Shown: in pieces, positions 31,576-31,760 of the stretch
Layout of the letters: each line of letters opens with the position of its first letter
Position numbering within the stretch: the first letter of the stretch is position 1
Source of the DNA: Escherichia coli
GTDB taxonomy: Bacteria > Pseudomonadota > Gammaproteobacteria > Enterobacterales > Enterobacteriaceae
Length of the DNA: 64,000 nucleotides
NCBI RefSeq assembly: GCF_003334815.1
Contig: NZ_QOWO01000006.1
Reading direction: 5' to 3' (one strand)
Position numbers and translations under genes: made by a program
Notes under the pieces: model-generated
Seen by the model: only the letters and a program-made list of their open reading frames with translations
Told to the model about the DNA's origin: nothing
The model's database searches: none

Positions 31576-31760
31576 CAGCCGTTGCCTGATGCGACGCGTA
31601 ATGCGTCTTATCAGGCCTACAGTGAACAGAACCGTAGGTCGGATAAGGCGTTCACGCCGCATCCGACAGCCGTTGCCTGATGCGACGCGTAATGCGTCTT
31701 ATCAGGCCTACAGTGTACAGAACCCCAGGGCGGATATGGCGTTCACGCCGCATCCGACAA
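31576..31760. repeat. BIME cluster: about 91-bp unit tandemly duplicated (31576-31666 and 31667-31757), each containing two REP palindromes
   Basis: CAGCCGTTGCCTGATGCGACGCGTAATGCGTCTTATCAGGCCTACAGTG...GGATAAGGCGTTCACGCCGCATCCGACA occurs twice in tandem with few mismatches. Confidence 0.9.

What the first reader, a model, noticed from the sequence alone, without database searches (positions are those of the whole stretch)
31576..31760. BIME in which a 91-bp composite unit is tandemly duplicated
Downstream of trmJ the same roughly 91-bp segment (two oppositely oriented REP palindromes plus linker) occurs twice in direct tandem (31576-31666, 31667-31757) with only a few mismatches (for example GTGAACAGAACCGTAGGTCGGATAAGG vs GTGTACAGAACCCCAGGGCGGATATGG). 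Such arrays are binding platforms for DNA gyrase, IHF and Pol I and hotspots for REP-associated rearrangement. The copy number here may differ between strains and marks a likely recombination-prone site just upstream of the isc operon promoter.
Basis: seen in the sequence. Interest (0 to 1): 0.3.

Follow-up and report, generated by a model that had tools for sequence, protein, structure and literature searches.

The report
Known BIME-2 repeat, two tandem copies
The 91-bp tandem duplication after trmJ is real, but it is an ordinary, already catalogued E. coli BIME-2 repeat (paired Y and Z2 REP hairpins) whose copy number runs from one to four between strains, as is usual for this kind of repeat.

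Summary
Observation confirmed: window 31575-31759 holds two head-to-tail 91-bp units (A and B) with 5 mismatches and no indels. The first unit begins on the last base of the trmJ stop codon, about 75 nt upstream of the conserved iscR promoter motif. Each unit is a Z2 REP, a 13-nt linker and an inverted Y REP, which is the BIME-2 architecture. Rfam's Y+Z2 two-hairpin model (naRNA4) matches across the unit junction above its gathering score.

The orthologous K-12 array (A-A-B) is already listed as a BIME-2 "iscR-yfhQ" with in-vivo gyrase cleavage sites in a published Topo-seq table.

Across 5,426 complete E. coli genomes the site is polymorphic:
- about 49% have one unit (several haplotypes);
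- about 12% have A-B, as in the window;
- about 12% have A-A-B;
- 13 genomes have A-A-A-B;
- 26% carry an unrelated BoxC/triplex-motif element instead.

Every multi-copy allele I sequenced and decomposed is A(n)-B, which fits misaligned exchange or slippage within the 50-nt stretch the two units share.

The IHF claim does not apply to this BIME class. Different assemblies of DH1, BL21(DE3) and the DH10B lineage disagree on copy number (real instability or assembly error; unresolved).

Verdict: already known, low interest.

The parts
30835..31575 (+). trmJ coding sequence (246 aa). Its TAA stop is 31573-31575, and the last A is the first base of the repeat tract.
   Evidence: ORF list; RefSeq annotation of 100%-identical sequence.
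31575..31665 (+). Unit A of the tandem array (91 nt). This is the unit type that is amplified in 3- and 4-copy alleles.
   Evidence: allele decomposition.
31666..31756 (+). Unit B of the tandem array (91 nt, 5 differences from A). It is the last unit in every multi-copy allele decomposed.
31584..31620 (+). Z2-type REP hairpin no. 1 (GCCTGATGCGACGC...GCGTCTTATCAGGCCTAC). It starts 9 nt after the trmJ stop codon.
   Evidence: Sequence; the second hairpin of Rfam RF02564 aligns to the identical copy at 31675-31711.
31621..31633 (+). 13-nt short linker between the heads (CTAC/GTAG ends) of Z2 and inverted Y. It contains one of the A/B differences.
   Evidence: Sequence.
31634..31667 (+). Inverted Y-type REP hairpin no. 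1 (GTAGGTCGGATAAGGCG TTCA CGCCGCATCCGAC), well formed.
   Evidence: Aligns to the first hairpin of RF02564 with all pairs standard.
31675..31711 (+). Z2-type REP hairpin no. 2, identical to no. 1.
31725..31758 (+). Inverted Y-type REP no. 2. It is degenerate: CCAGGGCGGATATGG replaces GTAGGTCGGATAAGG, so the GTAG head is lost and the stem weakened.
   Evidence: The RF02564 hit starting here reaches only 35.3 bits.
31637..31708 (+). Y + Z2 two-hairpin module that spans the unit junction and matches Rfam naRNA4 (RF02564) above the gathering score. On this strand it exists only when at least 2 units are present.
   Evidence: 72.2 bits versus gathering score 59.5, model positions 1-77 of 77.
31832..31855 (+). 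Conserved iscR-promoter-region motif TTGACCAATTTACTCGGGAATGTC, used as the right-hand anchor. The array ends about 75 nt upstream of it.
   Evidence: Exact matches upstream of iscR in 25 other Enterobacterales genomes. That it is the promoter/IscR-site region is inference from position and conservation.
31936..32424 (+). iscR coding sequence.
   Evidence: annotation.

Best explanation
This is the trmJ-iscR BIME-2 of E. coli: an array of 91-bp units, each a Z2 REP hairpin, a 13-nt linker and an inverted Y REP hairpin. It sits in the 3' untranslated region of trmJ. The window carries the two-unit allele A-B.

How copy number changes (inferred). Units are gained and lost by misalignment of the direct repeats, either replication slippage or unequal exchange between sister chromosomes. 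A and B are identical over their first 50 nt, so exchange there turns A-B into A-A-B plus a single B. That explains why every multi-copy allele I decomposed is A(n)-B.

What it does.
- Shown by others for the K-12 allele: the DNA is a transcription-independent gyrase cleavage site.
- Inferred by analogy with REP325 and other REPs: on the trmJ transcript the hairpins act as a 3'-end barrier that stabilises the upstream mRNA and partly limits read-through towards iscR.
- Inferred from position: because the first REP starts 9 nt after the stop codon, it may lower TrmJ translation.

Nothing here suggests a function beyond what is usual for BIME-2 elements.
For: Structure:
- Period-91 tandem with 5 mismatches.
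- The Y and Z2 hairpins align to Rfam RF02564 at 72.2 bits, above the gathering score of 59.5, with both stems intact. The preprint states that each naRNA unit is one Z2 plus one Y.
- BIME-2 is defined as z2 + y in tandem copies with short linkers, and copy number at a locus varies between strains (PMC3333891).
- No IHF consensus in the array.
- The strand folds far better than shuffles (-96.2 kcal/mol, z = -6.4).

Catalogued orthologue: Topo-seq table DS3 lists 'BIMEs2 2662088-2662353, 265 bp, iscR-yfhQ' with 3 (Cfx), 6 (Rif+Cfx), 0 (microcin) and 4 (oxolinic acid) gyrase cleavage sites. MG1655 carries A-A-B at this site.

Allelic series:
- B (PI12), A (D9), A-B (window), A-A-B (MG1655, ME8067, DH10B, BL21(DE3) NC_012971.2, DH1 NC_017625.1) and A-A-A-B (ML35, XL1-Blue, BL21(DE3) CP081489).
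- 13 records have 4 copies and none has more.
- 3,313 genomes have 1-2 copies. 1,433 have the BoxC allele. About 1,329 have 2 or more copies (95-99% band).
- No B-followed-by-unit junction appears among the 25 best rows.

Function by analogy:
- REP325 is a partial Rho-dependent terminator and an mRNA stabiliser.
- A REP fewer than 16 nt from a stop codon lowers translation (Liang 2015, as summarised in PMC12306157). Here the distance is 9 nt.
- No intrinsic terminator lies on the + strand between trmJ and iscR.
Against: - No expression, mRNA half-life or protein data exist here for trmJ or iscR, so all RNA-level roles are analogies. The same preprint stresses that REP effects depend on context and that REPs do not uniformly change half-lives.
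- The slippage/unequal-exchange route is inferred from allele structure alone. A REP-associated transposase route is not excluded.
- The 2-, 3- and total 1-copy counts are derived from BLAST summary bands and subtraction, not from per-genome parsing. The 4-copy count of 13 is read from the ranked rows.
- Only 25 of 110 top records were inspected for A-B-B.
- Gyrase data are for the 3-unit K-12 allele, not the 2-unit allele in the window.
- Unit B's Y REP is degenerate, so the window has only one canonical Y hairpin.
Confidence: 0.88

Rival explanations
1. Copy number is changed by the REP-associated tyrosine transposase (TnpA-REP/RAYT), which cleaves and rejoins single-stranded BIME DNA. On this reading passive slippage or homologous exchange is not the cause.
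For: PMC3333891 notes that variation of BIME-2 copy number between strains suggests recombination and amplification, and reports in-vitro experiments testing TnpA-REP-promoted BIME recombination. Unit boundaries fall in the linkers next to the REP feet.
Against: The strict A(n)-B order, the whole-unit steps and the 50-nt identical tract are fully explained by misalignment. No TnpA-REP cleavage site was mapped here. No in-vivo amplification by this enzyme was found in the material I read.
Confidence: 0.08
2. The Y+Z2 module at 31637-31708 is a functional small RNA of the naRNA4 (CssrE) type that works with HU to organise the nucleoid.
For: Rfam RF02564 matches at 72.2 bits, above the gathering score of 59.5, over the full model length. 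The original report proposed that REP325-derived naRNA4 condenses DNA with HU (PMC4550694, listed).
Against: The model is in effect a profile of any Y+Z2 pair, so the hit shows repeat-family membership, not function. [quoted passage not shown] About half of E. coli genomes have one unit and 26% have no BIME here, so the junction module is dispensable.
Confidence: 0.03
3. The apparent copy-number differences are assembly artefacts: collapse or over-expansion of a short tandem repeat.
For: Assemblies of the same lab strain disagree. DH1 has 3 units in NC_017625.1 and 1 in NC_017638.1. BL21(DE3) has 3 in NC_012971.2 and 4 in CP081489. DH10B has 3, whereas TOP10, which I recall derives from DH10B, spans 4 units. 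Seven of the 13 four-copy records are lab strains in a run of near-consecutive accessions.
Against: Hundreds of independent genomes fall in each class, and the classes go with distinct flanking and unit haplotypes. An array of 182-364 bp is spanned by single long reads and by many Sanger reads. The window's A-B allele is 100% identical over 521 bp to several unrelated assemblies. So artefact may explain some lab-strain conflicts but not the polymorphism as a whole.
Confidence: 0.03

Closest known systems
E. coli K-12 BIME-2 between iscR and yfhQ (trmJ), as catalogued in Sutormin et al. 2019 Topo-seq table DS3
   Same: Same genomic site, same unit sequences (A and B are identical to those in MG1655), and the same Y/Z2 architecture. 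The K-12 copy is cleaved by gyrase in vivo.
   Different: K-12 has three units (A-A-B, 265-273 bp). The window has two (A-B), so one fewer canonical Y REP, which is the REP type gyrase prefers.
REP325 / naRNA4 (RF02564), the yjdM-yjdN BIME-2
   Same: Tandem Y+Z2 units in the 3' UTR of a gene that is followed by a co-oriented gene. The junction module here scores above the Rfam gathering threshold. REP325 acts as a partial Rho-dependent terminator and mRNA stabiliser, which is the best functional model for this array.
   Different: REP325 has 12 hairpins (six units); this array has four hairpins. The linker here is 6 nt shorter than the model's. No experimental data exist for trmJ-iscR transcripts.
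BIME-1 / RIP-RIB elements (Y + Z1 with L linker, IHF-binding)
   Same: Also a pair of inverted REPs in an intergenic 3' region.
   Different: BIME-1 is single-copy, uses Z1 and has a long conserved L linker with an IHF site. Here the REPs are Y and Z2, the linkers are about 7 to 13 nt, the unit is tandemly repeated and no IHF consensus is present.
BoxC / PIT / TMECO intrastrand-triplex repeats
   Same: Another dispersed intergenic repeat of E. coli linked to local sequence variability. It occupies exactly this site in 1,433 of 5,426 genomes.
   Different: Unrelated sequence and predicted structure (purine-motif triplex rather than REP hairpins). It is absent from the window.

Membership tests
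BIME-2 | Built from one Y-type and one Z2-type REP in opposite orientation | tested here: met
   The two hairpins align to the Y and Z2 hairpins of Rfam RF02564 (72.2 bits, all stem pairs standard). states that each naRNA unit holds a Z2 and a Y. The definition is in PMC3333891.
BIME-2 | Occurs as tandem copies of the REP pair | tested here: met
   Two 91-nt units in the window; 1-4 units in other strains.
BIME-2 | Short linkers (S and s/l/r), with no long L linker carrying an IHF site | tested here: met
   The linkers are 13 nt and about 7 to 9 nt, depending on where the REP foot is drawn. No WATCAANNNNTTR match lies in 31575-31759.
BIME-2 | Bound and cleaved by DNA gyrase in vivo | not testable with these tools
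   Published for the orthologous K-12 array: 3, 6, 0 and 4 cleavage sites under four conditions. Not measured for the 2-unit allele.
BIME-2 | [quoted passage not shown] | tested here: met
   1, 2, 3 and 4 units at the same site.
BIME-1 (RIP/RIB) | Single Y-L-Z1 unit whose L linker carries an IHF site | tested here: not met
   Tandem units, a Z2-type hairpin, short linkers and no IHF consensus.
naRNA4 / CssrE (Rfam RF02564) | Covariance-model score at or above the gathering threshold | tested here: met
   31637-31708 on the + strand: 72.2 bits versus 59.5, full length.
naRNA4 / CssrE (Rfam RF02564) | Processed discrete RNA that binds HU and condenses the nucleoid | not testable with these tools
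   No expression data here. The function itself is disputed for REP325.
Intrinsic (Rho-independent) terminator | G+C-rich hairpin followed by a U-run on the transcribed strand | tested here: not met
   No + strand terminator-like site in 31400-32000. The REP hairpins are not followed by T-runs.
Translation-attenuating REP (Liang, Rudd and Deutscher 2015) | REP begins fewer than 16 nt after the stop codon of the upstream gene | tested here: met
   The TAA ends at 31575 and the REP begins at 31584, so 8 nt lie between them. The rule is as summarised in PMC12306157.
Translation-attenuating REP (Liang, Rudd and Deutscher 2015) | Measured reduction of upstream protein through ribosome stalling and trans-translation | not testable with these tools
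   Needs TrmJ protein measurements with and without the REP.

The most novel reading that the evidence does not exclude
The number of units, or their replacement by BoxC, might act as a strain-specific dial with three effects. It would set how strongly trmJ translation and mRNA stability are affected by the stop-proximal REP. It would set how much trmJ transcription reads into iscR. And it would set how many gyrase-preferred Y hairpins sit about 75 nt upstream of the iscR promoter, so that natural alleles differ in TrmJ level or in isc operon insulation and supercoiling.
Probability: 0.1. Interest if true: 0.35.

Novelty: already known. Interest (0 to 1): 0.1.

Why it matters
It matters little as a discovery. 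BIME-2 arrays, their Y/Z2 make-up, their gyrase binding and their copy-number variation between strains are textbook-level knowledge, and this particular array is already in a published catalogue.

There are two practical points:
- The locus is a simple 91-bp-step length marker that separates E. coli lineages, and even disputed lab-strain assemblies, so it is a handy check on assembly quality.
- It offers a natural allelic series (BoxC, or 1, 2, 3 or 4 units) for testing how REP dosage affects the upstream gene, read-through and gyrase activity next to the iscR promoter.

Tried and rejected
1. Counting alleles by the '80% coverage' statistic with 1-copy and 2-copy queries. The tool joins non-overlapping pieces, so 1- and 2-copy genomes are pooled (3,312 and 3,313). 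I separated them only through the identity bands of a junction probe and through spread-row sampling.
2. A 56-nt probe meant to be specific for unit A. Other REP loci match it at 86-93% over its full length, so the coverage count was useless. It did reveal single-A alleles.
3. IHF site: no consensus in the array, so the IHF-platform idea was rejected for this element.
4. Intrinsic terminator and sigma-70 consensus scans of 31400-32000 found nothing on the + strand. This says nothing about the real iscR promoter, which does not fit the strict consensus used.
5. Liang et al. 2015 could not be fetched by PubMed id or PMC id. A first review contained no usable passage. I relied on the summary in PMC12306157.
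6. The species-representative scan with an iscR-promoter 24-mer returned no Escherichia, Shigella or Salmonella locus, although the pattern is in E. coli. The immediate-outgroup state therefore remains unknown and only more distant genera were usable.
7. Supplementary files of PMC3333891, which show BIME copy variation, are not held.
8. Locus L038 (BS-04) could not be parsed with my flank anchors and was dropped.
9. NC_000913.3 as held here shows no repeat_region feature at the site, so I could not give the EcoCyc REP number.

Full report

Yes. Tandem Repeats Finder reports a single array at 31575-31759 with period 91, 2.0 copies, 94% matches and no indels. The ungapped repeat finder gives 31575-31665 versus 31666-31756 at 95% identity. 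I call the first unit A and the second B. They differ at five positions (51, 60, 61, 65 and 72 of the unit), all in the linker and the left arm of the second hairpin.

The array starts on the last base of the trmJ stop codon (trmJ 30835-31575). It ends 177 nt before the iscR start codon (iscR begins at 31936). RefSeq annotation of identical DNA names both genes.

**2. Anatomy**

| Element | Coordinates | Note |
|---|---|---|
| Z2-type REP no. 1 | 31584-31620 | GCCTGATGCGACGC-GTAAT-GCGTCTTATCAGGCCTAC |
| Linker | 31621-31633 | 13 nt |
| Inverted Y-type REP no. 1 | 31634-31667 | GTAGGTCGGATAAGGCG-TTCA-CGCCGCATCCGAC |
| Z2-type REP no. 2 | 31675-31711 | identical to no. 1 |
| Inverted Y-type REP no. 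2 | 31725-31758 | degenerate |

About 7 nt separate each Y from the next Z2. In unit B the Y hairpin has CCAGGGCGGATATGG in place of GTAGGTCGGATAAGG.

Rfam's two-hairpin model RF02564 (naRNA4) was built on the REP325 units, each of which is one Z2 and one Y. It matches 31637-31708 over its full length at 72.2 bits, above the gathering score of 59.5, with both stems intact. That module spans the A/B junction, so on this strand it exists only when at least two units are present. Other registers and the opposite strand score 28-38 bits.

Further structural results:
- The transcribed strand folds far better than shuffled controls (-96.2 kcal/mol, z = -6.4).
- No IHF consensus lies in the array.
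- No intrinsic terminator lies on the + strand between trmJ and iscR.

**3. Classification**

Ton-Hoang et al. (PMC3333891) define the two classes:
- BIME-2: z2 + y REPs, in multiple tandem copies with short linkers, and with copy number at a locus varying between strains.
- BIME-1: single-copy y + z1 with a long L linker that carries the IHF site.

All BIME-2 features that I could test are met, and the BIME-1 features are not (see the membership table).

The orthologous K-12 element is already catalogued. Table DS3 of the gyrase Topo-seq study lists 'BIMEs2 2662088-2662353, 265 bp, iscR-yfhQ'. It records 3 (ciprofloxacin), 6 (rifampicin + ciprofloxacin), 0 (microcin) and 4 (oxolinic acid) gyrase cleavage sites. 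It is one of the few BIME-2 loci with multiple sites. The main text reports that gyrase prefers y over z2 REPs and that BIME-2 signals rise when transcription is blocked.

**4. Variation across E. coli**

I compared the locus with 5,426 complete genomes. Sequenced examples of each allele:

| Allele | Examples |
|---|---|
| Single B | PI12, DH1 NC_017638.1 |
| Single A | D9 |
| Divergent single units (91-92 nt) | STEC2017-197, E105, ATCC 25922 |
| A-B | the window, 100% identical over 521 bp to strains 203740, MRE162 and others |
| A-A-B | MG1655, ME8067, DH10B, BL21(DE3) NC_012971.2, DH1 NC_017625.1 |
| A-A-A-B | ML35, XL1-Blue CP081007, BL21(DE3) CP081489 |

A synthetic six-unit query ranks 13 four-unit records first and finds nothing longer.

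Counts:
- 3,313 genomes have one or two units.
- 1,433 carry an unrelated element instead.
- The remaining 680 or so are therefore three- or four-unit alleles.
- A probe made of the end of B joined to the start of a unit puts 1,329 genomes in the 95-99% identity band. That is the score expected for an A-to-next-unit junction, so about 1,329 genomes have two or more units.
- This gives about 649 two-unit genomes (12%), in line with spread-row sampling (7 of 60 rows; 5 of 40).
- About 2,660 genomes (49%) have one unit, of which about 110 are exact B.

These figures rest on summary bands and subtraction, not on per-genome parsing.

**5. How copy number changes (inferred)**

Every multi-copy allele I decomposed is A(n)-B. 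A and B are identical over their first 50 nt and their last 19 nt. Misaligned exchange or slippage within the 50-nt tract converts A-B into A-A-B plus a single B. Exchange in the 19-nt tract would give A-B-B plus a single A. I saw no B-followed-by-unit junction among the 25 best rows, although single-A alleles do exist.

A REP-transposase route is not excluded, but it is not needed to explain the data.

Divergent single-unit haplotypes differ from A by a paired change in the Y stem (GGCG...CGCC to GGTG...CACC) that keeps the hairpin.

**6. Lab-strain conflicts**

Different assemblies of the same lab lineages disagree:

| Strain | Assembly and units |
|---|---|
| DH1 | NC_017625.1: 3; NC_017638.1: 1 |
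| BL21(DE3) | NC_012971.2: 3; CP081489: 4 |
| DH10B / TOP10 | DH10B: 3; TOP10: span equals 4 units (TOP10 deriving from DH10B is from my own knowledge) |

XL1-Blue was sequenced here and has four units. Stbl4 has a four-unit span. Seven of the 13 four-unit records are lab strains in one run of accession numbers.

Several of these strains are recA-deficient. The record notes recA1 for DH1; the other genotypes are from my own knowledge. If the differences are real, they would therefore be RecA-independent slippage events. They could equally be assembly errors, and I cannot decide between the two with these tools.

**7. The alternative occupant and the outgroups**

In 26% of genomes (O157:H7, strain 97-3250 and others) the BIME is replaced by a 121-nt segment. 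Its core is CCCTCGCCCCTTCGGGGAGAGGGTTAGGGTGAGGGG. This fits the published BoxC/PIT/TMECO type A intrastrand-triplex motif and differs from MG1655 TMECO no. 7 only in one loop base. In these genomes trmJ is one codon shorter, because the stop codon lies inside the variable segment.

Distance from the trmJ stop to the conserved iscR-promoter motif:

| Genomes | Distance | Content |
|---|---|---|
| Buttiauxella, Cedecea, Pantoea, Mixta, one Trabulsiella | 21-61 nt | no repeat element |
| Klebsiella oxytoca group, another Trabulsiella, an Enterobacter | 96-153 nt | their own REP-like or BoxC-like inserts |
| The window | 256 nt | the 2-unit BIME |

So the spot just after the trmJ stop has been filled repeatedly by different small repeats. 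The scan returned no Escherichia or Salmonella locus, so the immediate ancestral state is unknown.

**8. Function**

Shown by others, for the K-12 allele: gyrase cleaves this element in vivo, and this does not depend on transcription.

Inferred:
- By analogy with REP325, which acts as a partial Rho-dependent terminator and as a stabiliser of the upstream mRNA, the hairpins probably protect the trmJ 3' end and reduce read-through towards iscR.
- Because the first REP begins 9 nt after the stop codon, it meets the 'fewer than 16 nt' criterion for REP-mediated lowering of translation.

None of this was measured for trmJ. The same preprint stresses that REP effects depend on context.

The naRNA4 hit should be read as repeat-family membership. 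The nucleoid-condensing role proposed for naRNA4 is contradicted by that preprint, and most strains lack the junction module.

**9. Verdict**

The element is an ordinary, previously catalogued BIME-2, and its copy-number polymorphism is a known property of the class. Novelty: already known. Interest: low (0.1).

The most novel reading still open is that unit number, or BoxC replacement, tunes trmJ expression and the gyrase and read-through environment of the iscR promoter between strains. I put that at about 10%.

Noticed in passing
L003:349-469 (strain 97-3250); same site as window 31570-31756: In 1,433 of 5,426 complete E. coli genomes the BIME is replaced by a 121-nt segment carrying a BoxC/PIT/TMECO type A triplex motif (CCCTCGCCCCTTCGGGGAGAGGGTTAGGGTGAGGGG). 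In these genomes trmJ ends one codon earlier (245 aa, TGA), because the stop codon lies inside the variable segment.
   Followed up: partly
L040 (DH1 NC_017638.1) vs L043:16181-16631 (DH1 NC_017625.1); L007 vs L009; L006; L010: Assemblies of the same lab strains disagree in unit number: DH1 1 versus 3, BL21(DE3) 4 versus 3, and TOP10/XL1-Blue/Stbl4 4 versus 3 in DH10B and MG1655. Seven of the 13 four-unit records are lab strains with near-consecutive accession numbers. This is either real, possibly RecA-independent, instability or assembly error.
   Followed up: partly
L011-L035 (outgroup loci), region between the trmJ stop and the iscR promoter motif: The site just after the trmJ stop is empty (21-61 nt) in Buttiauxella, Cedecea, Pantoea, Mixta and one Trabulsiella. 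In the Klebsiella oxytoca group, another Trabulsiella and an Enterobacter it holds different REP-like or BoxC-like inserts (96-153 nt). So it is a recurrent landing site for small repeats.
   Followed up: partly
L012, L014, L016, L023, L024, L026, L035 upstream of the matched motif: In Pantoea and Erwinia the short trmJ-iscR spacer consists of two or three direct copies of a ~25-nt motif (TTGA..n..TTAC..GGTTAAATAG) that resembles the conserved iscR-promoter motif. These may be repeated IscR-binding sites.
   Followed up: no
L037, L004, L039 versus window 31646-31657: Divergent single-unit haplotypes carry a paired change in the Y REP stem (GGCG...CGCC to GGTG...CACC) that preserves the hairpin. 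Their Z2 differences fall in the loop.
   Followed up: no
window 31584-31711: The minimum-free-energy RNA fold pairs the whole first Z2 REP with the whole second Z2 REP, enclosing the Y hairpin, rather than forming local Z2 hairpins. This long-range alternative is possible only in alleles with at least two units.
   Followed up: no
window 32425-32534 (+): The Rfam iscRS 'iscR stability element' (RF01517) lies between iscR and iscS, at 138.1 bits.
   Followed up: no
window 2802-2949 (+), 39909-40212 (-), 40344-40552 (-), 53381-53472 (+): Other Rfam matches above gathering score in the window: GlmY, ryfA, IS128 and sroE. naRNA4 at 31637-31708 is the only BIME-2-type hit above threshold in the 64 kb.
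   Followed up: no
Genome-contig scan: The exact 24-mer TTGACCAATTTACTCGGGAATGTC is present in the window and in E. coli genomes, yet the species-representative scan returned 25 loci with no Escherichia, Shigella or Salmonella among them. The collection or its index seems incomplete for this pattern.
   Followed up: no
L005:500-590 (strain 2018-06-4CC): In this three-unit allele the first unit differs from A by one base right after the stop codon (AATAATAGCC versus AATAACAGCC). This shows that point divergence between the amplified units is beginning.
   Followed up: no
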